From the IMG/VR virus record IMGVR_UViG_2844443253_000007: 48,088 nucleotides of DNA; one strand, given 5' to 3'. The notes beneath the pieces were generated by a model. The model saw nothing but the letters and a program-made list of their open reading frames with translations, was not told the DNA's origin and searched no databases. Below, one piece after another: positions 437 through 34,423 of this stretch; the stretch's first letter is position 1; each line of letters opens with the position of its first letter. A program made the position numbers and the translations under genes. The stretch comes from a virus (Duplodnaviria > Heunggongvirae > Uroviricota > Caudoviricetes).

Positions 437-479
437 TGAGGTGTACTGGCAATAGCGGATACTACCATTTGTTCTTTTT

Positions 480-1298
480 TTAAGCAGCCATCTGATGATA
501 TTTTTCCCTGAAGGCTGCCGGGGAGATATTCCCCAGACGAGAGTGACGACGCTGACGATTGTAGAAAATCTCAATGTATTCCCGTATTACTGAGATGGCT
601 TCATCCCGGTTATTAAAACGATAGTGGCTCAGGCTCTCATTTTTCAGCGTTCCCCAGAAGCTTTCCATCGGAGCGTTGTCGTAACAGTTACCTTTACGCG
701 ACATTGATGTTTTCAGACCAGACTGCTCCTGTATGACCCGGTAATCGTATGCGCAGTACTGTGAACCTCGATCAGAGTGGTGGATTAGCCCGGCAGGTGG
801 GCGCTGGCTCCTGAGCGCCATAAACAGGGCTTTACCTGTCAGCTCTTTTGTCATGCGCTCTCCCATGGCGTAGCCGACAATTTCGCACGTATAAACATCT
901 TTGATGCCAGCGAGGTACAACCATCCCTCCTGTGTGGCAACATACGTCAGGTCCGCCACCCAGACCTGATTTGGTGCTGTAGGAGCGAACGTCTGGTTCA
1001 GCAGATTTGGCGCAACTGGCAGATTGTGGTTCGGGTTCGTAGTCGCTCTGAACTTGCGTTTCTGCTTACAGCGTAGCCTCAGCTCCTTACGAAGACGTGC
1101 AAGTCGGTCACGACCAACGATGATGCCATTCTCTGCCAGCTCCGTCTGGAGCCGCCGGGTTCCATATGTTTCGCGAGTGCGGATATGTGCCACCTTAATC
1201 TCCAGTTTTAGCCGCTCATCACTTTGTTTTCTGTCTGAGGGTTCATGCTGTACCCAGTTGTAATAACCGCTCCTGGATACACCAAATACCTGACACAT
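480..1298 (-). CDS. IS600 OrfB transposase (DDE integrase-like catalytic domain)
   Basis: 272-aa ORF identical or near-identical in 5 copies; rve-type motifs (HSDRGSQY, DNAPMESFW). Confidence 0.9.
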   Translation of the reverse strand: MCQVFGVSRSGYYNWVQHEPSDRKQSDERLKLEIKVAHIRTRETYGTRRLQTELAENGIIVGRDRLARLRKELRLRCKQKRKFRATTNPNHNLPVAPNLLNQTFAPTAPNQVWVADLTYVATQEGWLYLAGIKDVYTCEIVGYAMGERMTKELTGKALFMALRSQRPPAGLIHHSDRGSQYCAYDYRVIQEQSGLKTSMSRKGNCYDNAPMESFWGTLKNESLSHYRFNNRDEAISVIREYIEIFYNRQRRHSRLGNISPAAFREKYHQMAA

Positions 1299-1333
1299 CG
1301 CTTCAATGGGAAATTGTTGTCGCCATTGTTCGA

Positions 1334-1636
1334 TTAACGCGTATTTTTCAGCGACTCCTGTGCAAAATACGCTGTTGCTTTTTTTAATATATCTCGCTCA
1401 AGGCGAGCTTCATTTAACGCCTTACGCAGTTGCAGAATTTCAGATTCCAGTTCAGCCAGCGTGCGGGAACCAGGAGTACCGAGCCCTTTTCTGGCGGCGG
1501 TAACCCATTGTCCTAAAGTGCCTTCAGGAAGGGATAATCGGGAAGCGCCTTCACTGATTGAAAGTTGATTTTCAAGAACCGTTCTGACAGCTTCGGCTTT
1601 GAACTCTTTAGAGTAACGTTGGGTTTTTCTGCTCAT
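1334..1636 (-). CDS. IS600 OrfA (HTH transposase subunit)
   Basis: 100-aa ORF repeated in IS600 copies; leucine-zipper/HTH IS3-family OrfA. Confidence 0.9.
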   Translation of the reverse strand: MSRKTQRYSKEFKAEAVRTVLENQLSISEGASRLSLPEGTLGQWVTAARKGLGTPGSRTLAELESEILQLRKALNEARLERDILKKATAYFAQESLKNTR

Positions 1637-2163
1637 TATTAGCTCCTTCTGATGCCATTCTATTTCAGGAAGGAGTGTCCGTTAAACTCAGGCTACCTCA
1701 CTTATTCTAAGCAACCGGGTAGCATCATACGGGGCAATTATGGCCGCATTACCATACATGCAACTGTACATAGCTGATTACCTGGCTGACACCATGCATT
1801 TGTCAGCAGAGGAGCACGGCGCGTATTTGTTGCTGATGTTCAATTACTGGCAAACAGGAAAGCCAATACCCAAAAACAGGTTGGCAAAAATTGCCCGTCT
1901 GACTAACGAGCGATGGGTTGATGTTGAACCATCCTTGCGGGAGTTTTTTTGTGATAACGGCGACGAATGGATGCATCTTCGGATTGAGGAAGATCTGGCA
2001 TCTGTCAGAGAAAAATTAACCAAAAAATCAGCCGCAGGAAAAGCATCTGTTCAGGCCAGAAGAAGCAGAAAGGAAGCAGATGTTCAAACAAAACAAGAGA
2101 GAAATTTAACAGGTGTTCAAACAGATGTTGGAGTGGTGTTCGAACATGATGCTGGATTTGCCC

Positions 2164-3069
2164 TTATATTTCCAGACATCTGTTATCACTTAACCCATTA
2201 CAAGCCCGCTGCCGCAGATATTCCCGTGGCGAGCGATAACCCAGCGCACTATGCGGATGCCATTCGTTATAATGCTCGAACGCCTCTGCAAGGTTCTTTG
2301 CTGCCGTTAACCCGTCTGGTTTGGGCATGATACTGATGTAGTCACGCTTTATCGTTTTCACGAAGCTCTCTGCTATTCCGTTACTCTCCGGACTCCGCAC
2401 CGCCGTGTTCTTCGGTTCAAGTCCCAACATCCGGGCGAACTGGCGTGTTTCATTAGCCCGGTAGCATGAACCATTATCCGTCAGCCACTCCACTGGAGAC
2501 GACGGAAGATCGTTGCCGAAGCGGCGTTCCACCGCTCCCAGCATGACGTCCTGTACTGTTTCACTGTTGAAGCCGCCGGTAGTCCCCGCCCAGTGCAGTG
2601 CCTCACGATCACAGCAGTCCAGCGCGAACGTGACACGCAGTCTCTCTCCGTTATCACAGCAGAACTCGAACCCGTCAGAGCACCATCGCTGATTGCTTTC
2701 TTTCACGGCCACTCTGCCTGTATGTGCCCGTTTCGATGGCGGTACAGCAGGTTTTCGCTCAAGCAACAGCGCATTCTGGCGCATGAGCCGGTAAACACGT
2801 TTGGCATTGATCGCAGGCATACCATCAAGTTCTGCCTGTCTGCGAAGCAGCGCCCATACCCGACGATAACCATACGTGGGCAGCTCTCCGATAACATGGT
2901 GTATACGGAGAAGCACATCCGTATCATCAGTGTGACGACTGCGGCGGCCATCCATCCAGTCATCGGTTCGTCTGAGAATGACGTGCAACTGCGCACGCGA
3001 CACCCGGAGACAACGGCTGACTAAGCTTACTCCCCATCCCCGGGCAATAAGGGCGCGTGCGCTATCCAC
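2164..3069 (-). CDS. insD: IS2 InsD transposase
   Basis: 301-aa ORF, IS3-family DDE transposase, duplicated at 37970-38875. Confidence 0.9.
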
Positions 3070-3437
3070 TTTTTTGCCCGTCCATATTCAACGGCTTCTT
3101 TGAGGAGTTCATTTTCCATCGTTTTCTTGCCGAGCAGGCGCTGGAGTTCTTTAATCTGCTTCATGGCGGCAGCAAGTTCAGAGGCAGGAACAACCTGTTC
3201 TCCGGCGGCCACAGCAGTAAGACTTCCTTCCTGGTATTGCTTACGCCAGAGAAATAACTGGCTGGCTGCTACACCATGTTGCCGGGCAACGAGGGAGACC
3301 GTCATCCCCGGTTCAAAGCTCTGCTGAACAATTGCGATCTTTTCCTGTGTGGTACGCCGTCTGCGTTTCTCCGGCCCTAAGACATCAATAATCTGTTCTC
3401 CAATGACAAGTCTAAAAACTGGTATTAAGACTATCAC
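3027..3437 (-). CDS. insC: IS2 InsC (HTH subunit); ORF track start may be upstream of true start
   Basis: ORF overlapping insD start in -1 frame arrangement typical of IS3 family. Confidence 0.85.
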
Positions 3438-4230
3438 TTAAATAAGTGATACTGGTTGTCTGGAGATTCAGGGGGCCAGTCTAGATGCCAACACAAAGGC
3501 AACTAATAAAGATACAGATAAAGATCTAAAAACAGATCTAACCCATCCCAAACCCTTCCCTTCCGGAAGGGAGTTTCGGGATTTTGTGGCTGGAGTGCTT
3601 GAGGGGAGATTATCTGGCGGTACTGCAGCGGAATTTTGTAATTCTGCGGTGGTTGCGTTGCAGGCTGCTGGCCTGGATGTCTGTCGTGAGTATCCGGTGC
3701 CAGAGCGTGGTGACGGTTGCGGAGGGCGGATTGATATCGTCGTGACTGACAGGAACGGTGTCCGGTGTGGGATCGAGCTTGACCGAAATTCTCCGCGACA
3801 GAAATCACTGCTCAAAATCGGTGCTGTTGAAACCGGGATATGTGTCTTGCGGCGCAGTGATATCGCAAGGCACACCGAGCAGGGAATTCTGGTTATCGGT
3901 GGGGCTGTTCGCCAGAAAAAATTTGACCCGTTGTCAGTTGATCTGCCCGACTGGTTGTCAGAAACACTCTGGCATGAGTGGGTCCAGTTCAGGCAGGCAT
4001 TGCGAAAACCGATTCGAACGGAGCTGGGCGCTAACGGGGCGATACGGGAACTGGAAAAATTCCGTCAGCAGGGTTTTACACCTGAGCAGGTGATTCGACA
4101 CAGCATCGCCAATGAATACCAGGGTCTGTTCGCGCCGAAAGGTGTTCGGCCTGAGACGTTGCTCCGACAGGTTAACACCGTCTCGTTGCCGGACAGTGCG
4201 ATCCCGCCAGGCTTCAGGGGGTAACAGACC

Positions 4231-4977
4231 ATGAAAAATATTGCGACAGGAGGCGTTCTGGAGCGTATCCGCAGACTGACCCCACCACATGTAACCGCCC
4301 CATTCAGAACGGTTGCGGAGTGGCGCGAGTGGCAACTTGCTGAAGGCCAGAAACGTTGCGAGGAGATCAACCGCCTGAATCGTCAGTTGCGGGTGGAAAA
4401 AATCCTGAACCGCTCCGGCATCCAGCCGTTGCACCGGAAGTGTTCGTTTGCGAATTACCGGGCGCAGAACGACGGTCAGCGACATGCACTGAGTCAGGCG
4501 AAATCCATAGCTGACGAACTGATGACAGGCTGTACGAATTTTGTGTTCAGCGGTAAGCCCGGCACCGGAAAAAATCATCTTGCAGCCGCGATTGGCAACC
4601 GGCTGATGGCGAAGGGGCGTAGCGTGATTATCGTCACCGTGTCCGATGTCATGAGCGTGTTGCATGAGAGCTACGACAACGGCAAATCCGGTGAAAAATT
4701 TTTACAGGAGCTTTGTGGTGTTGACCTGCTGGTCCTGGATGAAATTGGCATGCAGCGGGATACGAAAAACGAGCAGGTGGTACTGAACCAGATTGTTGAT
4801 CGCCGGACGGCATCGTTACGCGGTGTGGGGATGCTGACAAATATTAACCATGCAGCGATGAATACACTTCTCGGCGAGCGGGTGATGGATCGCATGGTCA
4901 TGAACGGCGGGCGCTGGGTTAATTTTAACTGGGAGAGCTGGCGTCCGAATGTTAGCCATTCGAGGGTTGTTAAGTAG
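4231..4977 (+). CDS. DnaC-like replicative helicase loader (phage replication ATPase)
   Basis: Walker A GKPGTGKNHL and Walker B LLVLDEIG; position after replication initiator. Confidence 0.8.
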   Translation: MKNIATGGVLERIRRLTPPHVTAPFRTVAEWREWQLAEGQKRCEEINRLNRQLRVEKILNRSGIQPLHRKCSFANYRAQNDGQRHALSQAKSIADELMTGCTNFVFSGKPGTGKNHLAAAIGNRLMAKGRSVIIVTVSDVMSVLHESYDNGKSGEKFLQELCGVDLLVLDEIGMQRDTKNEQVVLNQIVDRRTASLRGVGMLTNINHAAMNTLLGERVMDRMVMNGGRWVNFNWESWRPNVSHSRVVK

Positions 4978-4991
4978 TTTCAGGAGGATTT

Positions 4992-5414
4992 ATGGCGAAA
5001 CCTTTTACTCCCGAACAGCGGGAAGAACTGAAGACGCGAATTGTGGAACTCGTGCATCAGGACGGTCGGGTCACGATTCGGCAGTTGTCCGATGAAACAG
5101 GTATCAGTCGTGCGTCTGTCGGTCGCTTATGCATAGAACTGGTCGCAAGTGGTGATGTATATAATTCTGGCTACGGCTTATTCCCGTCTGAACAGGCTCG
5201 CAAGGACTGGCAAAGCGCCCGCAAAAAACTCTCGAGAGTAAAGGTGAGGAAACCGGTTGTTGTTGATCCGGACCTTATCTGGTCATTACCTGACAGAGAA
5301 ATACGCCGCTACGACAGGCGCCTGAATATAATCTGTCGCGAGTGCCGGAAGAGCGAAGCTATGCAGCGTGTACTGGCTTTCTATCAGGGTAATTTTCAGG
5401 AGGCGATACTGTGA
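4992..5414 (+). CDS. Hypothetical prophage protein (putative HTH)
   Basis: 140-aa ORF with RBS, in-operon with replication genes. Confidence 0.5.
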   Translation: MAKPFTPEQREELKTRIVELVHQDGRVTIRQLSDETGISRASVGRLCIELVASGDVYNSGYGLFPSEQARKDWQSARKKLSRVKVRKPVVVDPDLIWSLPDREIRRYDRRLNIICRECRKSEAMQRVLAFYQGNFQEAIL

Positions 5415-5828
5415 ATGAAATTAGCTATCAGGCTTCAATTACCGCTGGCATTCGCATCAAAGGAGAGGAGCATGGAAATAAAACCAGAAGATGAGTTAAG
5501 CAATATCGTTTTATTTCCGATAAAAGAGGATGACCCTCGTAATCAGGTTAATTTTCTTTATAAGCCATCGGAAAGACCATATTGCCATCACGCCTCTGTA
5601 CGGGTTGACGAAAAAGAGCGTCAGGTCCGCTGTAAAATCTGCGGTGCGGTTGTGGAGCCGTTTGACTGGATGCTCTCTGTGGCAAAAAGAGAAACCAGAC
5701 TGGCAGATGATGTAAGGCTATTGCGCCAGGAGGAACAGGAAAGGCGGAGAAATATAGAAAAGCTGATACAGATTGAGCGTAACGCGAAAGCGCGGATACG
5801 CAGGGCGACAAAATCCAGAACTGAATAA
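5415..5828 (+). CDS. Hypothetical prophage protein with C/H-rich zinc-finger-like motif (alternative start at 5472)
   Basis: ORF with CHH...CKICG motif; start overlaps previous stop. Confidence 0.45.
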   Translation: MKLAIRLQLPLAFASKERSMEIKPEDELSNIVLFPIKEDDPRNQVNFLYKPSERPYCHHASVRVDEKERQVRCKICGAVVEPFDWMLSVAKRETRLADDVRLLRQEEQERRRNIEKLIQIERNAKARIRRATKSRTE

Positions 5829-6140
5829 TTAAATTTAGCACTGTTAAAAATTTAATCCTTAACCGGAGGGATTTCTGCACCCTCAAATCATCAGGAGACC
5901 GCCCGAAAGGGCGGTAATGAATGGTTACATTATTTAGAAAAAAATATCCGCGAAAGAGTAGAACAACAGAATTCCTGTTTCTCATTCTGTTTATCGTGTT
6001 GATGACACCGATATCCCCGCAAATTTTTGTCTGGATAATCGGAAAAATAATTGAGCCAGTTATTGAATTGTATAACGACGTGGTATGGGCGTCATTCAAC
6101 ACACTGCACAATAAAATTAATCCGTATAAGGAAAGCTGAT

Positions 6141-6506
6141 ATGGCACTGACGAAAAAACAACGTGCAGAACTGCGCATGAAGTTCGGTGGTCGCTGCGCT
6201 TATTGCGGCTGCGAACTTGGCGAAAAGTGGCATGCAGACCATGTAAAACCGGTCATTCGTTTTGATGGAAATATGCTTCACCAGGAACGTGACGATATAT
6301 CCAACATGGTACCAGAATGCCACCCATGCAATCTGCACAAGCATTGCAGTAGCCTGGAAGATTATCGACGAATTATCAGTGATGGTCGTCGTGAATTCCT
6401 TGCGTCCGGGAAAGGCAAAGCGCTGGTTCGTATGGGATTGGTTGAAATGAAATCTGACCCGGTTGTGTTCTGGTTTGAAAAATATCAAGAAGGGGCTACG
6501 GCATGA
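6141..6506 (+). CDS. HNH endonuclease
   Basis: CAYCGC...HADH...CHPCN motif pattern of HNH nucleases; RBS AAGGAAAG upstream. Confidence 0.75.
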   Translation: MALTKKQRAELRMKFGGRCAYCGCELGEKWHADHVKPVIRFDGNMLHQERDDISNMVPECHPCNLHKHCSSLEDYRRIISDGRREFLASGKGKALVRMGLVEMKSDPVVFWFEKYQEGATA

Positions 6507-7168
6507 CTACTATTACCAAAGAGCGACTGCAATGGCTGGCTAACATTTCTGGCCGCGATGATATTGACGATATAGACGGCGGTGAAATTCGTGAACTGGC
6601 GCTTATCGCTCTGGCATCACTGGAAGCAGAGCCTGTAGCGGAATGCATTGTTGAAGATGGGGGCATGTGTATTGATGGGTTCGGTGAGTATGTGGGTCAC
6701 TCGCTGCCTGATGGAATGCATGAGCTTTATGCTGCCCCGCGAATGCGACAACCTGATGGATGGAAAGCCGTAGCTGTAGCGTGGAAGGTGACGTTTACTC
6801 AAGTTGACCAGGAATCTAATACGTTCACTGCTATATATTTTTACAAAGCGGAAGTTGAGCGTTGGGTACGACTGCATAAAGCATGTGATTTTCGGGCAGA
6901 TATAACACCGCTTTACGCAGCGCCGGCAGTGCCGGTTGCAGTAAACGACGACATGGCTTACGCATTCCATCACGCACTGTCAGATTCATCGCTTGGCTCT
7001 GATGAAATCGAAGAAATTAAAACCGGTTTGCGTGCTGCCTTTGCCAACGTCACTATCCAACCAGAGCCGATAGTGCCGGATGAAATCGGGCCAAACGATA
7101 GTAATACGTTTGATTATGTTGATGGCTGGAACGCCTGCCGCGCTGCCATGCTTAAGGGAGATAAATAA
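6503..7168 (+). CDS. Hypothetical prophage protein
   Basis: 221-aa ORF, start overlaps upstream stop, acidic N-terminus. Confidence 0.5.
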   Translation: MTTITKERLQWLANISGRDDIDDIDGGEIRELALIALASLEAEPVAECIVEDGGMCIDGFGEYVGHSLPDGMHELYAAPRMRQPDGWKAVAVAWKVTFTQVDQESNTFTAIYFYKAEVERWVRLHKACDFRADITPLYAAPAVPVAVNDDMAYAFHHALSDSSLGSDEIEEIKTGLRAAFANVTIQPEPIVPDEIGPNDSNTFDYVDGWNACRAAMLKGDK

Positions 7169-7533
7169 TGATTAATCGAACCAAACTGGAGCACATTCTC
7201 GAATATGCCAGGCAGCAGAAATGTATTGGGCAACTTTGTAAAATTCCACCAGGAGATATGGTTGAAATCGTGGAAATGGCCATGCGTAAGGCTGGCAACT
7301 CTCCGGTAACTCTGGCTGGCTGGATAAGCTGTAGTGATGCAGTTCCTGCTGAATATTGCGATGTGATTCTTCTCGATGATCTCGGGAATGTATTCCCCGG
7401 TTCCTGGGATAAGGTTTTTTGCCCCACTCGTGGCGGGAATAAGATGGCTTTTGTGGACAAAGACGGCGTTGAAGTAGAGAGCTCAACTCACTGGATGCCG
7501 CTACCGGAACCACCGCAGGAGGTGAATCAATGA
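7168..7533 (+). CDS. Hypothetical prophage protein (DUF551-like)
   Basis: 121-aa ORF, translationally coupled to upstream gene. Confidence 0.45.
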   Translation: MINRTKLEHILEYARQQKCIGQLCKIPPGDMVEIVEMAMRKAGNSPVTLAGWISCSDAVPAEYCDVILLDDLGNVFPGSWDKVFCPTRGGNKMAFVDKDGVEVESSTHWMPLPEPPQEVNQ

Positions 7534-7613
7534 CCTGGCCTGAGGCATTCACCACGGTAGGAATTGCGATGGCGGTGGCGCTGGTGGTGTATTCGATTTG
7601 CCGTTGGGGTTAA
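7530..7613 (+). CDS. Small hydrophobic protein (27 aa), putative
   Basis: ATG overlapping upstream stop; single predicted TM segment; followed by terminator. Confidence 0.3.
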   Translation: MTWPEAFTTVGIAMAVALVVYSICRWG

Positions 7614-7620
7614 CAAACAA

Positions 7621-7650
7621 AAACCCCGGATTGATGGTCCGGGGTTTTTG
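7621..7650 (+). terminator. Rho-independent terminator
   Basis: GC stem CCCCGGA...TCCGGGG followed by T-run. Confidence 0.6.
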
Positions 7651-7930
7651 AAGGAAACAAAACAGAAACAGCAATTGCCGTTACCTGTTGTTACCATGGC
7701 AAGTAAACGTATCTCAGGCGAGCGCATTGCGCCGTTCTGACGCAGATAAATTAGCCTGGATAGAAGGTGCTGGCAATAAAAAATAGCGTTTTCTTATCGG
7801 TATCGGTAAGATTGCTGCGGGTGCTTGAGGCTGTCTGCCTCGGGCATGCCACTGTAAGGCAGACAGAGAAAAGCCCCAGTTAACATTACGCGTCCTGCAA
7901 GACGCTTAACATTAATCTGAGGCCCAATCT

Positions 7931-8143
7931 ATGTCTCACAAATGTAGGTTAGCCTCTTACGTGCCGAAAGGCAAGGAGAAGCAGGCTATGAAGCAGCAAA
8001 AGGCGATGTTAATCGCCCTGATCGTCATCTGTTTAACCGTCATAGTGACGGCACTGGTAACGAGGAAAGACCTCTGCGAGGTACGAATCCGAACCGGCCA
8101 GACGGAGGTCGCTGTCTTCACAGCTTACGAACCTGAGGAGTAA
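7931..8143 (+). CDS. mok-like overlapping reading frame of hok locus
   Basis: Upstream in-frame ORF overlapping hok, as in hok/sok loci. Confidence 0.5.
   Translation: MSHKCRLASYVPKGKEKQAMKQQKAMLIALIVICLTVIVTALVTRKDLCEVRIRTGQTEVAVFTAYEPEE
7988..8143 (+). CDS. hok: Hok/Gef-family type I toxin (51 aa, HokD/RelF-like)
   Basis: MKQQKAMLIALIVICLTVIVTALVTRKDLCEVRIRTGQTEVAVFTAYEPEE - single TM plus conserved Cys, typical Hok. Confidence 0.8.
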   Translation: MKQQKAMLIALIVICLTVIVTALVTRKDLCEVRIRTGQTEVAVFTAYEPEE

Positions 8144-8211
8144 GAGACCAGGCGGGGGAGAAATCCCTCGCCACCTCTCATGTGTCAGGCATCCTCAACG
8201 CACCCGCACTA

Positions 8212-8235
8212 AACCCGCTTCGGCGGGTTTTTTGT
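8212..8235 (+). terminator. Rho-independent terminator downstream of hok
   Basis: AAACCCGCTTCGGCGGGTTTTTTG hairpin plus T-run. Confidence 0.55.
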
Positions 8236-8379
8236 TGCGTGCTGAATACGCAGGGTGAAAAATAACCATATATTTGATTATATACACAACAAAAAATAAA
8301 AGTCATTGTACTTGCACATTAAACAATCAAATATACGGCGTGAAATAAATATTTATCAGATTAATATTTTTGTCTCTAT

Positions 8380-8631
8380 GTGGATATAACCGTTTGTACT
8401 TATAAACCTGGGGGCATCGTGGAAAAAATAAAGAAACTATTTAGTAGCAAATACGCAGTCATACGTCGTGATGACCTGTCAGTTATAGTCGAAATGGATT
8501 ACTTCCCTGAAACCCCAAAATCAATAATGTATCGTAATGGTCGAAAGGCAATTTTTTTACCGATGAGGGTAAGTGACATTATGGGAAATGATAAACTGCT
8601 GGATGAATTGCGAGTCAGAGCATCCTGTTAG
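8380..8631 (+). CDS. Hypothetical small protein; native stop lies at the IS1 insertion site
   Basis: ORF only; AT-rich upstream region. Confidence 0.3.
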   Translation: MDITVCTYKPGGIVEKIKKLFSSKYAVIRRDDLSVIVEMDYFPETPKSIMYRNGRKAIFLPMRVSDIMGNDKLLDELRVRASC

Positions 8632-8648
8632 TAGGTAATGACTCCAAC

Positions 8649-9152
8649 TTACTGATAGTGTTTTATGTTCAGATAATGCCCGATGACCTTGTCATGCAGC
8701 TCCACCGATTTTGAGAACGACAGTGACTTCCGTACCAGCCTTGCCAGATGTTGTCTCAGATTCAGATTATGTCGCTCAATGCGCTGAGTGTAACGCTTGC
8801 TGATAACGTGCAGCTTTCCCTTCAGGCGTGATTCATACAGCGGCCAGCCATCCGTCATCCATACCACGACCTCAAAGGCCGACAGCAGGCTCAGAAGACG
8901 CTCCAGTGTGGCCAGAGTGCGTTCACCGAAGACGTGCGCCACAACCGTCCTCCGTATCCTGTCATACGCGTAAAACAGCCAGCGCTGACGTGATTTAGCA
9001 CCGACGTAGCCCCAATGTTCGTCCATTTCAGCGCAGACAATCACATCACTGCCCGGTTGTATGCGCGAGGTTACCGACTGCGGCCTGAGTTTTTTAAGTG
9101 ACGTAAAACCGTGTTGAGGCCAACGCCCATAATGCGTGCACTGGCACGACAT
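8649..9152 (-). CDS. insB: IS1 InsB (expressed as InsAB' by frameshifting)
   Basis: 167-aa ORF overlapping insA. Confidence 0.9.
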
Positions 9153-9346
9153 CCGACGCCATTCATGGCCATATCAATGATTTTCTGGTGCGTACCGGGC
9201 TGAGAGGCGGTGTAAGTGAACTGTAGTTGCCATGTTTTACGGCAATGAGAGCAGAGATAGCGCTGATGTCCGGCAGTGCTTTTGCCGTTACGCACCACGC
9301 CTTCAGTAGCGGAGCAGGAAGGACATCTGATGGAAATGGAAGCCAC
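9071..9346 (-). CDS. insA: IS1 InsA
   Basis: 91-aa ORF repeated in all four IS1 copies. Confidence 0.9.
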
Positions 9347-9479
9347 GCAAGCACCTTAAAATCACCATCATACACTAAATCAGTAAGTTGGCAGCATTAC
9401 CCTGTTAGTATTGGCATTAATTCTGGTATACTACATAACGGGCTGAACACCCATTCTACTGCGCCAGCGGAGAACTACG

Positions 9480-10079
9480 ATGGCGCATATACAACTGGTC
9501 AAACAAACCTCTTCCGGATTACTTCTCCCGGCGACGCCGGAGAGTTGCGATTTTTTGCATCAAATCAAAATAGGTGAGTGGATACACGCAGACTTTAAGC
9601 GTGTGCGTAACTACGCATTCCACAAGCGTTTTTTCAAACTCCTGCAACTGGGATTTGATTACTGGACTCCGGTCGGTGGGGCGATCACGCCTCGCGAACG
9701 AAAACTGGTATCAGGCTTCGTTGATTACCTGTGCGAATCAGTAGGTCGGGAACACACTCCAGCCCTGAGTGATGCCGCAGAGCAATACCTTAATACAGTT
9801 GCGACATGCAGAACCCGGGATACGGCATTGCTAAAGTCGTTTGACGCTTTCCGCGAGTGGGTAACCATTCAGGCCGGATTTTACACCGAGCATATTTATC
9901 CTGATGGTAGTCGTGGGCGCAGGGCAAAATCTATCGCATTTGCGAACATGGACGAAACCGAGTTTCAGCAGGTTTATAAATCTGTACTGAATGTGCTGTG
10001 GAACTGGATCCTGTTCCGTAAATTTTCCTCTCCGGAGGAAGTCGAAAATGTGGCCGCGCAGTTACTGGAGTTTGCGTAA
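9480..10079 (+). CDS. Prophage protein, DUF1367-like
   Basis: 199-aa ORF in nin-like region upstream of Q; family assignment by recall. Confidence 0.5.
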   Translation: MAHIQLVKQTSSGLLLPATPESCDFLHQIKIGEWIHADFKRVRNYAFHKRFFKLLQLGFDYWTPVGGAITPRERKLVSGFVDYLCESVGREHTPALSDAAEQYLNTVATCRTRDTALLKSFDAFREWVTIQAGFYTEHIYPDGSRGRRAKSIAFANMDETEFQQVYKSVLNVLWNWILFRKFSSPEEVENVAAQLLEFA

Positions 10080-10369
10080 TGGTGGATTTACGTAAAGCGG
10101 CGCGGGGGCAGATGTGCACCGTCAGAATTCCTGGCTACTGCAATCACAATCCCGAAACTTCTGTGCTGGCGCATTACAGGCTGGCGGGGACGTGCGGAAC
10201 AGCGACAAAACCACACGATATGCAGGCAGCGATTGCCTGTAGCTCATGCCACGATTTAATCGACGGGCGGGTAAAAACCAGCGATTACACCAAAGAAGAA
10301 TTACGCCTGATGCATGCAGAAGGTGTTTTTCGCACACAAGAAATCTGGAGAAAGGAAGGTTATTTATGA
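10079..10369 (+). CDS. DUF1364 (YbcO-like) putative nuclease, Cys-rich
   Basis: 96 aa with CxxC...HYR...CSSCHD; ATGA start/stop overlaps on both sides. Confidence 0.6.
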   Translation: MVDLRKAARGQMCTVRIPGYCNHNPETSVLAHYRLAGTCGTATKPHDMQAAIACSSCHDLIDGRVKTSDYTKEELRLMHAEGVFRTQEIWRKEGYL

Positions 10370-10920
10370 TTTACCCAACAAATACAGGCAAAAGCGGGGA
10401 ACACCTTCGTCTCACCACGCTGGAAAGTGTCTGGATTCAGGGAAAACTGCGCATGTGGGGGCGCTGGTCGTATATTGGCGGCGGTAAGACGGGAAATATG
10501 TTTAACCAGTTGCTGGCATCCAAAAAATTGACGAAAACAGCCGTCAATGAAGCCCTGCGCAGGATGAAAAAAGCGGGAATAGAGAAACCTGAGCTGGAAG
10601 CGTTTTTGCGAGAGATGATCAATGGCAAGCAAAAGACCTGGCTGGCGCATTGTACTGATGCAGAGGCGTTATGTATTGATAGAGTCATAAGTGAGGTGCT
10701 GGCAGAGCATCCTGGATTGATTAGTGTCCTCCGGCAACGGTATGAAGGGCGGGGGATGACTAAGCGTAAAATGGCTGAATTGCTGAATGACGCACACCCT
10801 GAGTGGTGTTTCCGGACGTGCTGCAGTCGGGTAGATGTATGGCTAAATCTTGCTGAATATATGCTCTATCTACCGATGCGTGATGCATTCTCTTCCGGGG
10901 ATCTAAAAACCGTTTGTTGA
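10366..10920 (+). CDS. Late-gene antitermination protein, Q family
   Basis: Position downstream of nin-like genes; RMWGRWSYIGGG motif resembles Phage_antitermQ family. Confidence 0.5.
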   Translation: MIYPTNTGKSGEHLRLTTLESVWIQGKLRMWGRWSYIGGGKTGNMFNQLLASKKLTKTAVNEALRRMKKAGIEKPELEAFLREMINGKQKTWLAHCTDAEALCIDRVISEVLAEHPGLISVLRQRYEGRGMTKRKMAELLNDAHPEWCFRTCCSRVDVWLNLAEYMLYLPMRDAFSSGDLKTVC

Positions 10921-11307
10921 CTCAATCTGTTATCCGGGGCTATATTCCTCACGCGCCAGCAAAATCTGGCGTCGGGATTGGCGTCCCGGATGTTTACGGA
11001 GCGATATGAGACGCGCCCGCGTCTTTTTTCATATCGTTTGCACAGTCACATTCGCGATTTATGGCGGGCTGTGTGGGGGAGCCGAAAGGCTCGCCGGTTT
11101 CCGTACCCGGTTACGCCAACCCTGCACAGTTCGCCACCAGTTCGATTGGCGTCGTCGGTGGCGATAATTTCCAAATGTACGGAGTTATCGTTATGACCAC
11201 TCAAATCTCTGTTGAAACTCTCTCCCCGATCACCCATAACCAGTGAGGTAGCCTGAGTTTAACGGACACTCCTTCCTGAAATAGAATGGCATCAGAAGGA
11301 GCTAATA

Positions 11308-11610
11308 ATGAGCAGAAAAACCCAACGTTACTCTAAAGAGTTCAAAGCCGAAGCTGTCAGAACGGTTCTTGAAAATCAACTTTCGATCAGTGAAGGCGCT
11401 TCCCGATTATCCCTTCCTGAAGGCACTTTAGGACAATGGGTTACCGCCGCCAGAAAAGGGCTCGGTACTCCTGGTTCCCGCACGCTGGCTGAACTGGAAT
11501 CTGAAATTCTGCAACTGCGTAAGGCGTTAAATGAAGCTCGCCTTGAGCGAGATATATTAAAAAAAGCAACAGCGTATTTTGCACAGGAGTCGCTGAAAAA
11601 TACGCGTTAA
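11308..11610 (+). CDS. IS600 OrfA
   Basis: Identical to other copies. Confidence 0.9.
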   Translation: MSRKTQRYSKEFKAEAVRTVLENQLSISEGASRLSLPEGTLGQWVTAARKGLGTPGSRTLAELESEILQLRKALNEARLERDILKKATAYFAQESLKNTR

Positions 11611-11645
11611 TCGAACAATGGCGACAACAATTTCCCATTGAAGCG

Positions 11646-12464
11646 ATGTGTCAGGTATTTGGTGTATCCAGGAGCGGTTATTACAACTGGGTACAGCATG
11701 AACCCTCAGACAGAAAACAAAGTGATGAGCGGCTAAAACTGGAGATTAAGGTGGCACATATCCGCACTTGCGAAACATATGGAACCCGGCGGCTCCAGAC
11801 GGAGCTGGCAGAGAATGGCATCATCGTTGGTCGTGACCGACTGGCACGTCTTCGTAAGGAGCTGAGGCTACGCTGTAAGCAGAAACGCAAGTTCAGAGCG
11901 ACTACGAACCCGAACCACAATCTGCCAGTTGCGCCAAATCTGCTGAACCAGACGTTCGCTCCTACAGCACCAAATCAGGTCTGGGTGGCGGACCTGACGT
12001 ATGTTGCCACACAGGAGGGATGGTTGTACCTCGCTGGCATCAAAGATGTTTATACGTGTGAAATTGTCGGCTACGCCATGGGAGAGCGCATGACAAAAGA
12101 GCTGACAGGTAAAGCCCTGTTTATGGCGCTCAGGAGCCAGCGCCCACCTGCCGGGCTAATCCACCACTCTGATCGAGGTTCACAGTACTGCGCATACGAT
12201 TACCGGGTCATACAGGAGCAGTCTGGTCTGAAAACATCAATGTCGCGTAAAGGTAACTGTTACGACAACGCTCCGATGGAAAGCTTCTGGGGAACGCTGA
12301 AAAATGAGAGCCTGAGCCACTATCGTTTTAATAACCGGGATGAAGCCATCTCAGTAATACGGGAATACATTGAGATTTTCTACAATCGTCAGCGTCGTCA
12401 CTCTCGTCTGGGGAATATCTCCCCGGCAGCCTTCAGGGAAAAATATCATCAGATGGCTGCTTAA
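11646..12464 (+). CDS. IS600 OrfB transposase
   Basis: Near-identical to other copies (one R to C substitution). Confidence 0.9.
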   Translation: MCQVFGVSRSGYYNWVQHEPSDRKQSDERLKLEIKVAHIRTCETYGTRRLQTELAENGIIVGRDRLARLRKELRLRCKQKRKFRATTNPNHNLPVAPNLLNQTFAPTAPNQVWVADLTYVATQEGWLYLAGIKDVYTCEIVGYAMGERMTKELTGKALFMALRSQRPPAGLIHHSDRGSQYCAYDYRVIQEQSGLKTSMSRKGNCYDNAPMESFWGTLKNESLSHYRFNNRDEAISVIREYIEIFYNRQRRHSRLGNISPAAFREKYHQMAA

Positions 12465-13111
12465 AAAAAGAACAAATGGTAGTGTCCGCTATTGCCAGTA
12501 CACCTCACAGATTCCTGTTATTACCACCGAACTTTTGGCGCAGCTTTACGGCACTGAGCCGGTGCGTATTCGCCAGAATCATCATGAGAACAAAGTACGC
12601 TTCGTTGAAGGGAAACACTTTTTCAAAGTTGTTGGTAATGACCTTAAAGAATTGCGGGTCGCTTTAAACTACTCACAAAATCCAGTTTCACCCAAAGCCC
12701 GCTCCCTCATCCTCTGGACAGAACGAGGCGCAGCACGCCACGGCAAAATGCTCGAAACCGATCAGGCGTGGGATGTGTTCGAAAAACTGGAAGACTGCTA
12801 TTTCAGTCAAAGGGATCCGTCAACGCCAGTTTCATGCCAGAAAAGTTACGACACGCGAGTTCTCTGTTATCAGAGAGGCGGTGTCACTGTTTCCACAATT
12901 CAGTTACGGGATGATGATATTGTTATTTCCCTTGAGTCATGGCTGGAACTGGCGAGAGCCAATGGTTGGTTTGTTGTTCGCAGAGATAAACTGGTGGAAA
13001 GGTTGATGCAGCTTTAAAAAAGTTCTTGCATTTTTGCACATAAACTGCTTCAATTACGGTAAGCTTCGCAAAGCTGTATCGCGAGGCGAATAGCAGACAT
13101 GGACACTTGAA

Positions 13112-13225: not shown

Positions 13226-13302
13226 GGCCCTTTAGCTCAGTTGGTCAGAGCGAGCGACTCATAATCGCCAGGTCGCTGGTTCAAGTCCAGCAAGGGCCAC
13301 CA
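13226..13302 (+). tRNA. tRNA with anticodon CAT (Ile2/lysidine-type or Met)
   Basis: Cloverleaf with acceptor GGCCCTT/AAGGGCC, anticodon loop CTCATAA, TPsiC GGTTCAAGTCC, CCA end; resembles ileX/ileZ-type. Confidence 0.8.
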
Positions 13303-13303
13303 A

Positions 13304-13380
13304 CCACCACTAGCTCATCCGGATAGAGCATCAACCTTCTAAGTTGACGGTGCGAGGTTCGAGTCCTCGGTGGTGGGCCA
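13304..13380 (+). tRNA. tRNA-Arg (anticodon TCT); unusual acceptor stem beginning with C
   Basis: Anticodon loop CTTCTAA, TPsiC GGTTCGAGTCC, acceptor CCACCAC/GTGGTGG, CCA end. Confidence 0.7.
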
Positions 13381-13382
13381 GC

Positions 13383-13458
<76 letters not shown>

Positions 13459-13461
13459 TAT

Positions 13462-13536
<75 letters not shown>

Positions 13537-13650: not shown

Positions 13651-15255
13651 ATGATTCAGCTATCCAGTAGTCACAAACTTCCAGCAGTCTACTATCTCTA
13701 CCAGCGTAACGGCGTCTACTACTTCCGTCTTAGGGTCAGACAATCAAACAATGATAGAATGACCTCAATATCATTACGGACCAAGGATAGACGCACCGCT
13801 ATGGCTTACTCAAGGCACATAAAGGCAGCACTCAAGGCAATACACGCAGACAGACCCAACGCTACCTATGAGGAAATGAGGGAACACCTTAAGGACATCG
13901 CTGAGTGTGAACTGTCTATGGGCCGTTCAGATCTCTTTGAGCCTGACATGAGGGATATCTACCGGGACCAATACGGAGAACTTGGTGAGAGCCTTACCGA
14001 TGCTCTGGCTAGTGAGCCGCTAAGCATTGACCAGCATCGTTACATCAATGAGGCCCTGAAGGTGCTAAAAGCCTGTATGAGGCGTATCGAAGCGGGAGAC
14101 AGTCAGCCTCTGATAGATTACGTCGATCTTTTTAATGATATTGATAGGCAAGATAACCAAGCAGACTCTGTGTCCCTATCTGTTAATGCTCCAGAAGTAA
14201 AACCAGAAGTTACGCCTAGCATTACCATAGCGAGCCTCTTTGAACAATACGAAGCGGAGAACTATCAGAACTGGAAGCCTGCAACCTTAAGGGAAAACAA
14301 GGCGTCACACGCTGCGTTAATCGAAATATTCGACCATCTGGGTCTCAATGCAGACGCTAACAGGGCTGACATGCTTAGGGTCCGTGATGTGCTCCAGCAG
14401 TTACCTAGGAACCGTAAGCAGCGCTTCAAGGATGTCCCACTTGCTGACCTGTTGAGCCGTGAAGATAAGACAGATTGTCTGGATGTCGTTACCATCAACA
14501 ACAAGTATCTTATTAAGATGGCTGCTGTCTTTAGGTGGGCTGTGCGCAATGACTTGATTAAAAAGAACATGACTGAGGGTCTGGAGCTTAAAGTCCCTCA
14601 GCGTAAAGCCTCAGGGGCCCGTAACGCCTTCTCTACGGAGCAGGTGGGGCAACTACTGGTCGCAGCTAAGGCATACTCTCAGAAGACCTCTGGTAAGCCG
14701 TATCATTATTATGTTACCGCCTTGGCTGCTATCACTGGGGCGAGACTCAATGAAATAGCCCAACTACAGGTCAAAGACGTCAGGACCACTGAGGCGGGAA
14801 CCGTTTATATTCATATCAATGAAGACGATAGTAGTCTACCCGGTAAGAGCATCAAGAACGCTCATAGTGACCGCTGTGTGCCTCTGGTCGATGGGGCCTA
14901 TGGTTTTATATTGGCTGACTTTATGGCGCTTGTAGAGACCCGTAGAGGCGCTGACGGTGATGACGCTATGGTGTTCGATGGTCTGCGTCTCATGAAGAAC
15001 GGTTACGGTGAGCAGGTGAGTAAATGGTTTAATCGGACGTTGTTGCCTAAAGTCCTCGTAGACCGTAGCGGCTTAGCGTTTCACTCGTTTAGACATACAG
15101 TTGCGGCCCAGTTAAAACAACATGGGGTCGAGTTGGCGTATGCACAGGCGATCATGGGGCATAGTTCAGGGTCTATTACGTACGACCGTTATGCTAAAGA
15201 GGTCGAGGTTGATAGGCTGGTCAATGTGATGGCTGATGTTTATAAGGAGACCTAG
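13651..15255 (+). CDS. int: Tyrosine recombinase / integrase (534 aa) adjacent to tRNA cluster
   Basis: C-terminal catalytic signature (R in ITGARLNE, HSFRHT, final Y in ITYDRY); N-terminal arm-binding-like domain. Confidence 0.85.
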   Translation: MIQLSSSHKLPAVYYLYQRNGVYYFRLRVRQSNNDRMTSISLRTKDRRTAMAYSRHIKAALKAIHADRPNATYEEMREHLKDIAECELSMGRSDLFEPDMRDIYRDQYGELGESLTDALASEPLSIDQHRYINEALKVLKACMRRIEAGDSQPLIDYVDLFNDIDRQDNQADSVSLSVNAPEVKPEVTPSITIASLFEQYEAENYQNWKPATLRENKASHAALIEIFDHLGLNADANRADMLRVRDVLQQLPRNRKQRFKDVPLADLLSREDKTDCLDVVTINNKYLIKMAAVFRWAVRNDLIKKNMTEGLELKVPQRKASGARNAFSTEQVGQLLVAAKAYSQKTSGKPYHYYVTALAAITGARLNEIAQLQVKDVRTTEAGTVYIHINEDDSSLPGKSIKNAHSDRCVPLVDGAYGFILADFMALVETRRGADGDDAMVFDGLRLMKNGYGEQVSKWFNRTLLPKVLVDRSGLAFHSFRHTVAAQLKQHGVELAYAQAIMGHSSGSITYDRYAKEVEVDRLVNVMADVYKET

Positions 15256-17622: not shown

Positions 17623-17778
17623 ATGTCTCAACAACCACAACAACCACAACAAGAAATCAGCATCATTAACCTCGACCAGCTTGTGTCCATGACCTCAGTT
17701 GAAATTGCTGAGCTGACAGGCAAGGAGCACCGAAATGTCCTTCGTGATATTCGTAAGATGCTCGAAGAACTTAACGCG
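17623..17778 (+). pseudogene. Rha-family phage regulatory protein, N-terminal fragment truncated by IS1
   Basis: TSVEIAELTGKEHRNVLRDIRKML matches Rha/antirepressor N-terminal motif; ORF runs into IS1. Confidence 0.7.
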
Positions 17779-17833
17779 GGTAATGCTGCCAACTTACTGA
17801 TTTAGTGTATGATGGTGATTTTAAGGTGCTTGC

Positions 17834-18109
17834 GTGGCTTCCATTTCCATCAGATGTCCTTCCTGCTCCGCTACTGAAGGCGTGGTGCGTAACGGCAAAA
17901 GCACTGCCGGACATCAGCGCTATCTCTGCTCTCATTGCCGTAAAACATGGCAACTACAGTTCACTTACACCGCCTCTCAGCCCGGTAAGCACCAGAAAAT
18001 CATTGATATGGCCATGAATGGCGTCGGATGTCGCGCCAGTGCACGCATTATGGGCGTTGGCCTCAACACGGTTTTACGTCACTTAAAAAACTCAGGCCGC
18101 AGTCGGTAA
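17834..18109 (+). CDS. insA: IS1 InsA
   Basis: Repeated ORF. Confidence 0.9.
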
Positions 18110-18531
18110 CCTCGCGCATACAACCGGGCAGTGATGTGATTGTCTGCGCTGAAATGGACGAACATTGGGGCTACGTCGGTGCTAAATCACGTCAGCGCTG
18201 GCTGTTTTACGCGTATGACAGGATACGGAGGACGGTTGTGGCGCACGTCTTCGGTGAACGCACTCTGGCCACACTGGAGCGTCTTCTGAGCCTGCTGTCG
18301 GCCTTTGAGGTCGTGGTATGGATGACGGATGGCTGGCCGCTGTATGAATCACGCCTGAAGGGAAAGCTGCACGTTATCAGCAAGCGTTACACTCAGCGCA
18401 TTGAGCGACATAATCTGAATCTGAGACAACATCTGGCAAGGCTGGTACGGAAGTCACTGTCGTTCTCAAAATCGGTGGAGCTGCATGACAAGGTCATCGG
18501 GCATTATCTGAACATAAAACACTATCAGTAA
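18028..18531 (+). CDS. insB: IS1 InsB
   Basis: Repeated ORF. Confidence 0.9.
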
Positions 18532-18546
18532 GTTGGAGTCATTACC

Positions 18547-28155: not shown

Positions 28156-29038
<883 letters not shown>

Positions 29039-29042
<4 letters not shown>

Positions 29043-29649: not shown

Positions 29650-33088
<3,439 letters not shown>

Positions 33089-34358: not shown

Positions 34359-34423
34359 CTGAGGTAGCCTGAGTTTAACGGACACTCCTTCCTGAAATAG
34401 AATGGCATCAGAAGGAGCTAATA

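What the first reader, a model, noticed from the sequence alone, without database searches (positions are those of the whole stretch)
7931..8235. hok/mok-type type I toxin locus within the prophage early region
A 51-aa Hok-family toxin ORF with an overlapping upstream mok-like frame and a downstream terminator is present; an antisense Sok-like RNA would be expected near the 5' end. Such loci stabilize prophage DNA and may explain retention of this otherwise decayed region.
Basis: partly seen in the sequence, partly recalled or inferred. Interest (0 to 1): 0.4.

Follow-up and report, generated by a model that had tools for sequence, protein, structure and literature searches.

The report
Intact hok/mok/sok toxin–antitoxin locus

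Summary
A 51-aa Hok/Gef toxin ORF lies at 7988-8143 (Pfam 1.2e-23; CDS identical to K-12 hokD). An in-frame 70-codon mok frame lies at 7931-8143, and an intrinsic terminator at 8211-8236.

The hok mRNA most likely starts at 7819. The Sok antitoxin gene lies on the minus strand at 7939→7869.

Sok was placed by gap-free alignment to the annotated sokW of phage VT2-Sakai and to K-12 sokC. Its −35/−10 (TTGCCT-17-TAACCT) is identical to the sokW promoter. Published mutation of that −10 abolished antitoxin activity.

All R1-type RNA switch elements are present (tac, ucb, mok SD, dcb, fbi). The 5'–3' end pairing covaries across 33 loci from several genera.

The locus is 92.5% identical to hokW-sokW and occurs in 4722 of 5426 E. 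coli genomes, so nothing here is new. The idea that it explains retention of the decayed prophage is untested. Published work on relatives points to other roles or to no post-segregational killing.

One useful caveat: Rfam's "sok" model (RF01794) matches the hok-sense leader, not the Sok strand.

The parts
7807..7812 (+). Probable −10 box (TAAGAT) of the hok/mok mRNA promoter; the −35 is poor (TAGCGT at 7784-7789)
   Evidence: It lies 6 nt upstream of the conserved GGGUGC mRNA 5' end. Homologous loci carry TAGAAT/TATAAT/TACAAT at the same distance. The generic scan did not flag it. Inferred, not shown.
7819..8236 (+). Full-length hok (mok-hok) mRNA, about 418 nt
   Evidence: The 5' end is inferred from Rfam RF01794 model position 1 and from the invariant GGG(U/C)GCUUGAG start in 33 loci. 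The 3' end is inferred from the terminator. Fold is −178.4 kcal/mol, z = −8.0 against shuffles.
7819..7830 (+). tac (translational activator) element, GGGUGCUUGAGG
   Evidence: It pairs with fbi in the MFE fold and in duplex folding of each locus. It pairs with ucb in the Rfam consensus structure. All seven tac/ucb pairs tested are pairable in at least 32 of 33 loci.
7871..7877 (+). ucb (upstream complementary box, the anti-SD), AAGCCCC
   Evidence: It pairs with the mok SD in the full-length fold (pairs 56:107, 57:105, 58:104 are 33/33; pair 60:102 is 32/33). It pairs with tac in the truncated-form fold.
7869..7939 (-). Sok antitoxin RNA gene, about 71 nt: a 5' single-stranded tail (GUGAGACAUAGAUU), a long hairpin, then CUUUU
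   Evidence: Gap-free alignment to the annotated sokW of VT2-Sakai (L059 2629→2559) and to K-12 sokC. Hairpin −38.3 kcal/mol, z = −7.0. It covers the mok start codon and SD.
7919..7922 (+). mok Shine-Dalgarno, GAGG
   Evidence: Invariant in 33/33 loci. Same motif as the R1 mok SD (PMC9841398).
7931..8143 (+). mok reading frame, 70 codons, in frame with hok
   Evidence: Same arrangement as mokW and mokC. The start codon is ATG in 31/33 loci. In 5 related loci the frame is shifted by 1 nt (offset −58), so the act of translation matters rather than the Mok peptide.
7946..7951 (-). Sok promoter −10, TAACCT (read on the minus strand)
   Evidence: Identical in sequence and position to the sokW −10, which PMC8621323 mutated (primers YO-421/422: TAACCT→GAGCCG) with loss of antitoxin activity. 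Variants across 33 loci are TAACCT 8, TAATCT 14, and others.
7952..7956 (+). dcb (downstream complementary box), GCCUC
   Evidence: It pairs with the mok SD region in the truncated-form fold. Pairs 102-107 with 139-143 are 33/33. It adjoins the Sok −10, as in R1 (PMC9841398).
7969..7974 (-). Sok promoter −35, TTGCCT (read on the minus strand), with a 17-bp spacer to the −10
   Evidence: The TTG is invariant in 33 loci. The whole 46 nt upstream of the Sok start differs from sokW at a single base, at −2.
7974..7978 (+). hok Shine-Dalgarno, AGGAG
   Evidence: Present in 30/33 loci. It lies 9 nt upstream of the hok ATG.
7988..8143 (+). hok toxin ORF, 51 aa plus stop
   Evidence: Pfam PF01848 E=1.2e-23. 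The CDS is identical to K-12 hokD. It differs from HokW at 5 residues, all among the last 7. dN/dS against 28 divergent loci is 0.13-0.39, with three others at 0.65-0.73 or 0.
8126..8129 (+). TACG motif at Tyr47: the likely TadA A-to-I editing site (A8127), recoding Tyr to Cys
   Evidence: UACGAA is invariant in 33/33 loci. Editing at this codon is reported for K-12 hokD, whose CDS is identical (PMC5630033). Not tested here.
8193..8205 (+). fbi (fold-back inhibitory) element, CCUCAACGCACCC
   Evidence: It pairs with tac (−21.5 kcal/mol duplex; MFE fold). Pair 4:405 is U-A in 21 loci, C-G in 11 and U-G in 1, never unpaired.
8211..8236 (+). Intrinsic terminator of the hok mRNA
   Evidence: 8-bp GC-rich stem, 4-nt loop, T run.

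Best explanation
Window 7807-8236 holds a complete hok/mok/sok type I toxin-antitoxin module of the R1 kind. It is the prophage-borne hokW-sokW subtype, and it encodes a peptide identical to K-12 HokD.

The mechanism below is inferred by homology; the anatomy is shown here.

1. A weak promoter (−10 TAAGAT) makes a roughly 418-nt mok-hok mRNA starting at 7819.
2. In the full-length RNA the 5' tac box (7819-7830) pairs with the 3' fbi box (8193-8205), and the ucb box (7871-7877) sequesters the mok SD (7919-7922). The mRNA can then be neither translated nor bound by Sok.
3. Slow 3' trimming removes fbi. Then tac pairs with ucb, and the mok SD pairs with dcb (7952-7956) in a hairpin whose loop exposes the mok start.
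4. Ribosomes translating mok (7931-) read into hok and so couple Hok synthesis to mok translation. Hok is a 51-aa inner-membrane peptide that collapses membrane potential.
5. A stronger minus-strand promoter (TTGCCT-17-TAACCT, 7974-7946) makes an unstable Sok RNA of about 71 nt (7939→7869). Its 5' tail is complementary to the mok start and loop. Duplex formation blocks mok translation and leads to RNase III cleavage.
6. Hok is made only when Sok synthesis stops while the stable hok mRNA persists.
For: Toxin:
- Pfam HOK_GEF E=1.2e-23.
- The CDS is identical to K-12 hokD.
- It is under purifying selection.

Leader:
- Rfam RF01794 matches its full length at 118 bits.

Sok:
- Position and strand were transferred without gaps from two independent annotations: sokW in AP000422 and sokC in K-12.
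- It has a strong hairpin followed by a U-run.
- Its promoter hexamers and spacing are identical to sokW. Mutation of that −10 abolished antitoxin activity, and sokW RNA was seen on northern blots (PMC8621323).

RNA switch:
- The MFE fold of 7819-8236 closes the 5' and 3' ends.
- Across 33 loci from Escherichia, Shigella, Kluyvera, Photorhabdus, Pantoea, Citrobacter and others, 84.7% of cells pair, against 39-47% in slid controls. 38 pairs show double changes.
- The tac/fbi pair covaries: U-A 21, C-G 11, U-G 1.
- The alternative tac/ucb and SD/dcb helices are pairable in essentially all loci.
- Element definitions come from PMC9841398.

Relatives and integrity:
- The locus is 92.5% identical to hokW-sokW over 91% of the query.
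- HokW and HokD peptides are experimentally toxic (PMC8621323; bioRxiv 10.1101/2025.08.07.668861).
- The nearest IS1 lies 400 bp downstream, has a clean 9-bp target duplication, and leaves the fbi and terminator untouched.
Against: - There are no expression data for this strain.
- The hok promoter has a poor −35, and its upstream sequence differs from hokW's from about −12.
- The generic σ70 scan flagged neither the hok promoter nor the Sok promoter, because each has a hexamer with fewer than 4/6 matches.
- The tac/ucb and SD/dcb pairs are invariant, so they are consistent with the switch but give no covariation support.
- The structure tested was derived from this sequence, which inflates the 'cells paired' measure.
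- Chromosomal hokA/B/C loci were reported inactive for post-segregational killing and not rifampicin-inducible (summarised).
Confidence: 0.88

Rival explanations
1. The sequence is intact but the locus is a functionally silent relic. It persists only because it arrived recently with the prophage and is too small to have been hit by mutation. It makes too little hok mRNA to kill, and it does nothing for the cell or the remnant.
For: - The hok promoter is weak, with a poor −35, and was not flagged by the scan.
- The surrounding prophage is heavily decayed: IS copies at 437-1702, 2151-3484, 8634-9401 and 11242-12507, and no lysis or structural genes after Q.
- Chromosomal hok loci have been reported inactive for PSK.
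- Other copies in related genomes are visibly degraded: L006 lacks tac, L048 has a frameshifted hok, and K-12 hokC (L016) lacks fbi.
Against: - Every regulatory element is intact, and the Sok promoter is identical to a proven one.
- The hok CDS shows purifying selection across the family.
- K-12 hokD, with an identical CDS, is transcribed and edited (PMC5630033).
- A weak hok promoter is the normal design of the system, not a defect.
Confidence: 0.25
2. The module acts as an addiction or anti-deletion device: cells that delete this chromosomal segment lose short-lived Sok, are killed by the stable hok mRNA, and so the remnant is retained.
For: - This is the classical R1 mechanism.
- Hok genes are about 4-fold enriched in prophages.
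- GenBank annotators label hokW/gef 'prophage maintenance', but that is a label, not a test.
- The locus is the only clearly intact regulatory module found in the 1703-11241 remnant.
Against: - It has never been demonstrated for a prophage hok.
- hokW-sokW was found to promote lysis and phage release on induction.
- Chromosomal hokA/B/C did not mediate PSK.
- Decay around the locus has proceeded regardless (IS insertions, loss of late genes), so any protection is at most very local.
- Other hok copies in the same genome might supply cross-reacting Sok (L008 and L014 in S. flexneri).
Confidence: 0.15
3. The module is kept because it serves the host as an abortive-infection or stress device. Transcription shut-off by an infecting phage, or by stress, depletes Sok and triggers Hok, giving phage exclusion or persistence.
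For: - R1 hok/sok on a high-copy plasmid reduced T4 plating.
- HokB is linked to persistence.
- Hok is enriched in prophages, which often carry defence genes.
Against: - The large survey found no enrichment of hok near defence systems.
- There is no evidence for single-copy chromosomal loci.
- Nothing in the window bears on it.
Confidence: 0.12

Closest known systems
hokW-mokW-sokW of Stx2 phages 933W / VT2-Sakai (Sakai prophage 5)
   Same: - 92.5% nucleotide identity over 91% of the locus.
- Same layout: an in-frame 70-codon mok, a 51-aa Hok and a 71-nt antisense Sok.
- The Sok −35, spacer and −10 are identical, as are the Sok hairpin stem and U-run.
- Both are carried by a lambdoid (pro)phage.
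   Different: - The Hok C-terminus differs at 5 residues, all among the last 7 (…FTAYEPEE here, …FVDYESEK in HokW).
- There are 5 substitutions in the Sok 5' tail/mok start and one in the hairpin loop.
- The hok −10 is TAAGAT here and TAGAAT in hokW, and the sequence further upstream is unrelated.
- A different terminator follows fbi.
- The genomic position differs. Here the locus sits between the DUF551 gene and rem in the replication–Q segment. In VT2-Sakai it is in a different part of the phage, not within the cI–Q stretch I searched.
- Here the host element is a non-inducible remnant, so the published role in assisting lysis is moot.
E. coli K-12 hokD (relF), third gene of relBE-hokD in the Qin prophage
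   Same: - The hok CDS and peptide are identical.
- The hok SD, fbi box and downstream rem gene are the same.
   Different: - K-12 hokD homology starts only at about window 7974.
- The promoter, tac, ucb, Sok gene, mok start and dcb are replaced by relE, and RF01794 finds nothing there.
- The window's locus is therefore the complete form, of which K-12 hokD is a truncated derivative.
hok/mok/sok (parB) of plasmid R1, the paradigm
   Same: All named elements and both alternative mRNA folds are present: tac, ucb, mok SD, dcb, hok SD, fbi, a Sok −10 adjoining dcb, and a terminator after fbi (for the definitions).
   Different: - HokW-type peptides share only about 44% identity with R1 Hok (PMC8621323).
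- From my memory of the R1 sequence, R1 mok is out of frame with hok. I did not check this here.
- The Sok hairpin here is 18-20 nt longer than in hokC-type loci.
- R1's locus is plasmid-borne with a demonstrated PSK role.
E. coli K-12 hokC/mokC/sokC (gef)
   Same: - In-frame mok, and an annotated Sok overlapping the mok start on the opposite strand.
- Identical tac and ucb boxes.
- The Rfam model matches equally well (118.3 bits).
   Different: - About 75% nucleotide identity.
- K-12 hokC has lost its fbi region next to IS186, whereas the window's fbi is intact.
- hokC lacks the 18-nt extension of the Sok-target hairpin.

Membership tests
[quoted passage not shown] | A small (about 50 aa) hydrophobic Hok/Gef-family toxin peptide | tested here: met
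   PF01848 matched over positions 1-42 of 42, E=1.2e-23, 82.9 bits against a cut-off of 22.
[quoted passage not shown] | An upstream overlapping mok reading frame with its own SD that reads into hok | tested here: met
   ORF 7931-8143 preceded by GAGG at 7919-7922. The SD is invariant in 33/33 loci and the ATG is present in 31/33. Translational coupling itself cannot be tested with these tools.
[quoted passage not shown] | A cis-encoded antisense Sok RNA gene (promoter, 5' tail, hairpin, U-run) opposite the mok translation-initiation region | tested here: met
   Minus strand 7939→7869. Homologous to annotated sokW and sokC. The promoter is identical to the experimentally mutated sokW promoter. 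Hairpin z = −7. Transcription in this strain was not tested.
[quoted passage not shown] | Long-range tac/fbi pairing of the mRNA 5' and 3' ends | tested here: met
   Present in the MFE fold. Duplex −21.5 kcal/mol. 90.9% of cells paired, with a compensatory U-A/C-G change across 33 loci.
[quoted passage not shown] | Alternative pairings: ucb/mok-SD in the closed form; tac/ucb and mok-SD/dcb in the open form | tested here: met
   All three helices can form here and in at least 32 of 33 loci. The pairs are invariant, so there is no covariation support.
[quoted passage not shown] | 3' processing of the hok mRNA to a translatable truncated form; RNase III cleavage of the Sok/hok duplex | not testable with these tools
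   Needs northern blots or RNA-end mapping. For hokW, smaller RNAs and partial RNase III/Hfq dependence were reported.
[quoted passage not shown] | Toxicity of the peptide and its neutralisation by Sok | not testable with these tools
   Literature only. HokD (identical peptide) and HokW are toxic on induction. sokW neutralises HokW.
Rfam RF01794 'sok antitoxin (CssrC)' | Score at or above the gathering threshold over the whole model | tested here: met
   118.1 bits against 59, model positions 1-157. However, the model matches the hok/mok sense strand at three loci whose Sok is annotated on the other strand or whose mok/hok genes are annotated on the hit strand. The hit therefore marks the hok leader, not Sok.
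K-12-type hokD (relBE-hokD operon) | hok CDS placed directly downstream of relBE, with no own leader, mok or Sok | tested here: not met
   The window has the full leader, mok and Sok, and has no relBE. The upstream neighbour is a DUF551 gene. The peptide is HokD, but the locus architecture is of the hokW type.
Post-segregational killing / prophage-maintenance module | Loss of the DNA kills the cell and thereby stabilises the element | not testable with these tools
   No computation addresses it. Published data on relatives are negative or point to a different role.

The most novel reading that the evidence does not exclude
This complete, single-copy hokD-type module may be actively maintained in a dead, IS-bracketed prophage stump because it now serves the host. 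It could act as a local anti-deletion (addiction) device or as a transcription-shut-off sensor giving abortive infection. TadA-dependent Tyr47→Cys editing would then gate toxicity.
Probability: 0.12. Interest if true: 0.35.

Novelty: already known. Interest (0 to 1): 0.1.

Why it matters
It matters little beyond correct annotation. hok/sok is the textbook type I toxin-antitoxin system. This subtype has been characterised experimentally (hokW-sokW), the peptide is the known HokD, and the locus occurs in most E. coli genomes, in over a hundred deposited phage genomes and in many plasmids.

There are two practical points.

1. The functional unit is 7807-8236, not just the ORF. It shows what the truncated K-12 hokD looked like before relBE replaced its leader.
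2. Pipelines that take the Rfam 'sok' hit at face value will annotate the antitoxin on the wrong strand and at the wrong coordinates.

Tried and rejected
1. The generic σ70 scan of 7500-8500 found no minus-strand promoter near 7940-7990. I did not take this as absence. The scan requires at least 4/6 matches in each hexamer, and the proven sokW −10 (TAACCT) has 3/6.
2. I first read the Rfam 'sok' hit on the + strand as possible evidence about Sok. I rejected this after controls at K-12 hokC/sokC, VT2-Sakai sokW and phage Rac showed the model always hits the hok-sense strand.
3. I guessed that hokW lay in the unannotated ECs_1196–ECs_1199 gap of Sakai Sp5. This was wrong: there is no homology there, and no Hok in that 18-kb stretch. 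The phage-collection search located it instead.
4. A literature search for 'CssrC' returned only unrelated material-science and engineering papers, so the Shigella origin of the Rfam family could not be followed.
5. I did not use protein-structure prediction or the large protein-database searches. The family assignment was already unambiguous.
6. I considered whether the 70-aa product is the real toxin. I rejected a conserved Mok peptide because the mok frame is shifted in 5 related loci while the start site and SD are conserved.

Full report
**Observation**

The region was read directly and its ORFs listed.
- A 70-codon ORF runs 7931-8143 on the + strand. Its internal ATG at 7988 opens a 51-aa peptide.
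- That peptide matches Pfam Hok/Gef (PF01848) over the whole model (E=1.2e-23).
- A GC-rich hairpin at 8211-8230 is followed by a T run.
- Rfam's covariance model RF01794 matches 7819-7993 end to end at twice its gathering score.

**Source of the window and context**

- The locus with 3.1 kb of flank is 99.9% identical to a Shigella flexneri chromosome, including an IS1 copy.
- The best E. coli matches are 98.4% identical. 4722 of 5426 complete E. coli genomes carry a related locus, usually annotated hokD.
- Gene content around it: a DUF1376 gene interrupted by a 1.33-kb IS, a DnaC/IstB-like ATPase, DUF977, small phage ORFs, DUF551, then hok/sok, rem (8380-8631), IS1 (8634-9401, with a 9-bp CTGTTAGTA duplication), DUF1367, YbcO, a Q-like antiterminator (DUF1133), and C4/isrK-type RNAs.
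- This is the replication–nin–Q segment of a Rac-like lambdoid prophage.
- It is bracketed by inverted 1.27-kb IS3-family copies at 437-1702 and 11242-12507. I found no lysis or structural genes following Q.
- 'Decayed prophage' is therefore accurate. The hok unit itself is untouched.

**Locating Sok**

The Rfam family called 'sok' hits the same strand as hok. Controls showed this is a property of the model.
- At K-12 hokC it hits the mokC/hokC strand, whereas sokC is annotated opposite.
- At VT2-Sakai it hits the mokW/hokW strand, whereas sokW is annotated opposite.
- The model therefore describes the hok mRNA leader in its 'open' fold.

The true Sok was placed by homology.
- The annotated 71-nt sokW (L059 2629→2559) aligns without gaps to window 7939→7869.
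- K-12 sokC gives the same 5' end, opposite the ninth base of mok.
- The RNA has a 14-nt 5' tail complementary to the mok start, a long hairpin (−38.3 kcal/mol, z = −7) and a CUUUU tail.

The promoter upstream on the minus strand is TTGCCT-17 bp-TAACCT (7974-7946).
- The 46 nt upstream of the start differ from sokW at one base.
- Takada et al. (PMC8621323) changed exactly this TAACCT to GAGCCG (primers YO-421/422) and lost antitoxin activity.
- They also detected sokW RNA by northern blot and showed that HokW is toxic.
The promoter is there, although a generic consensus scan misses it.

**The mRNA switch**

Element names follow Le Rhun et al. (PMC9841398).
- The 418-nt RNA 7819-8236 folds at −178 kcal/mol (z = −8). 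Its first 12 nt (tac) are paired to 8193-8205 (fbi), and the mok SD is paired to the ucb box.
- I aligned 33 non-identical full-length loci from Escherichia, Shigella, Kluyvera, Pseudocitrobacter, Citrobacter, Photorhabdus and Pantoea.
- On that alignment the fold keeps 84.7% of cells paired, against 39-47% when partners are slid. 38 pairs show double changes.
- The diagnostic tac/fbi pair is U-A in 21 loci, C-G in 11 and U-G in one, and is never broken.
- The Sok-target hairpin also shows A-U/G-C swaps.
- The alternative open fold (tac/ucb and mok-SD/dcb) can form in essentially every locus, but its pairs are invariant.
- Caveats: the structure was derived from this sequence, and the sequences are related. 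The percentage-paired measure is therefore optimistic. The compensatory changes are the stronger evidence.

**Coding constraint**

- hok evolves under purifying selection (dN/dS 0.13-0.39 against most divergent loci).
- The mok SD and start are conserved, but in five loci the mok frame is shifted by one base.
- This fits mok as a translated leader whose peptide sequence is unimportant.

**Comparison with known systems**

- The locus is 92.5% identical to hokW-sokW.
- It encodes the K-12 HokD peptide exactly.
- K-12 hokD shares sequence only from about 7974 onward, with its leader replaced by relE. The window therefore shows the complete form of that gene.
- Related loci occur in 110 deposited phage genomes and 1455 plasmids.
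- A recent survey found hok about four-fold enriched in prophages and confirmed HokD toxicity (bioRxiv 10.1101/2025.08.07.668861).

**Function**

- Membership in the hok/sok family is met for every sequence-testable feature.
- What the module does for this remnant is not known.
However, hokW-sokW was found instead to hasten lysis and double phage release after induction, which is irrelevant for a stump without lysis genes.
- Chromosomal hokA/B/C did not show post-segregational killing.
- I rate an intact, probably expressed but functionally unassigned module as most likely. A silent relic, an anti-deletion role or a defence role are the less likely alternatives.

**Verdict**

It is low in novelty and low in interest.

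Noticed in passing
window 7819-7993 (+); L002 602-754; L059 2509-2683; L060 1509-1685: Rfam RF01794, named 'sok antitoxin (CssrC)', matches the hok/mok sense strand. It covers the hok mRNA leader from +1 to the hok AUG, in the open tac/ucb fold. It does not match the strand on which sokC and sokW are annotated, so automated annotation from this model would mis-strand and mis-size the antitoxin.
   Followed up: yes
window 8125-8131 (TTACGAA; A8127): Tyr47 of Hok is encoded by TAC inside a TACG motif. UACGAA is invariant in all 33 aligned loci. K-12 hokD, with an identical CDS, is reported to be A-to-I edited by TadA at this codon, recoding Tyr to Cys (PMC5630033). Toxicity here may also be gated by editing.
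   Followed up: partly
window 437-1702 (−) and 11242-12507 (+); also 34360-35626, 46336-47599, partial 18547-19495: There are at least four full copies and one partial copy of a 1.27-kb IS3-family element (orfA 100 aa, orfB 272 aa). Two of them, in inverted orientation, bracket the 9.5-kb prophage remnant that holds hok/sok. The left copy truncates a LysR-family gene (1-483).
   Followed up: partly
window 8634-9401, 17778-18546, 27000-27767, 44856-45624: Four IS1 copies, 99.7-100% identical to one another. The one next to hok is flanked by a 9-bp direct duplication (CTGTTAGTA) that contains the stop codon of the rem-like ORF (8380-8631), so rem is left intact.
   Followed up: partly
window 2151-3484 and 37957-39290: Two copies (99.85% identical) of a 1.33-kb IS3-family element. 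The first interrupts the DUF1376 replication-associated gene (1740-… / …-4224).
   Followed up: no
window 10940-11141 (+) and 39889-40077 (−): Two sets of isrK plus C4-antisense-type RNAs (Rfam RF01394, RF01695, RF03163), in opposite orientation. The first follows the Q-like gene of this remnant. The second suggests another lambdoid prophage remnant later in the window.
   Followed up: no
window 44499-44681 (+): Full-length match to Rfam CssrB, 'chromosome-encoded Shigella sRNA B' (151.6 bits), lying immediately beside an IS1 copy.
   Followed up: no
window 32523-32609 (+) and 28968-29084 (−): A group II intron catalytic-domain match (64.9 bits), and an ALIL pseudoknot (the IS3-family frameshift signal, 120 bits).
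   Followed up: no
window 13226-13533 (+), 13651-15255 (+): A cluster of four tRNA genes is followed directly by a 534-aa phage-integrase-family ORF. This looks like the attachment end of another integrated element.
   Followed up: no
window 7618-7650: A 13-bp-stem hairpin is flanked by A/T runs on both sides, so it looks like a bidirectional terminator. It separates the DUF551 gene from the hok promoter region, which suggests hok is insulated from read-through of prophage early transcription.
   Followed up: no
L006, L016, L048 (related loci in E. coli/Shigella genomes): Sister hok copies show different modes of decay. L006 has lost the tac box, the K-12-type hokC (L016) has lost fbi, and an S. 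flexneri hokC (L048) has a frameshifted toxin ORF. The window's copy has none of these defects.
   Followed up: partly
H56, PP818812.1 (phages collection): The best phage hit (97.4% identity) is labelled 'Actinobacillus phage vB_Apl-pPE4'. That is an unexpected host for an enterobacterial lambdoid module. Short contigs labelled Acinetobacter and Xanthomonas (L018, L023) also carry near-identical hok. These may be contamination or mislabelling.
   Followed up: no
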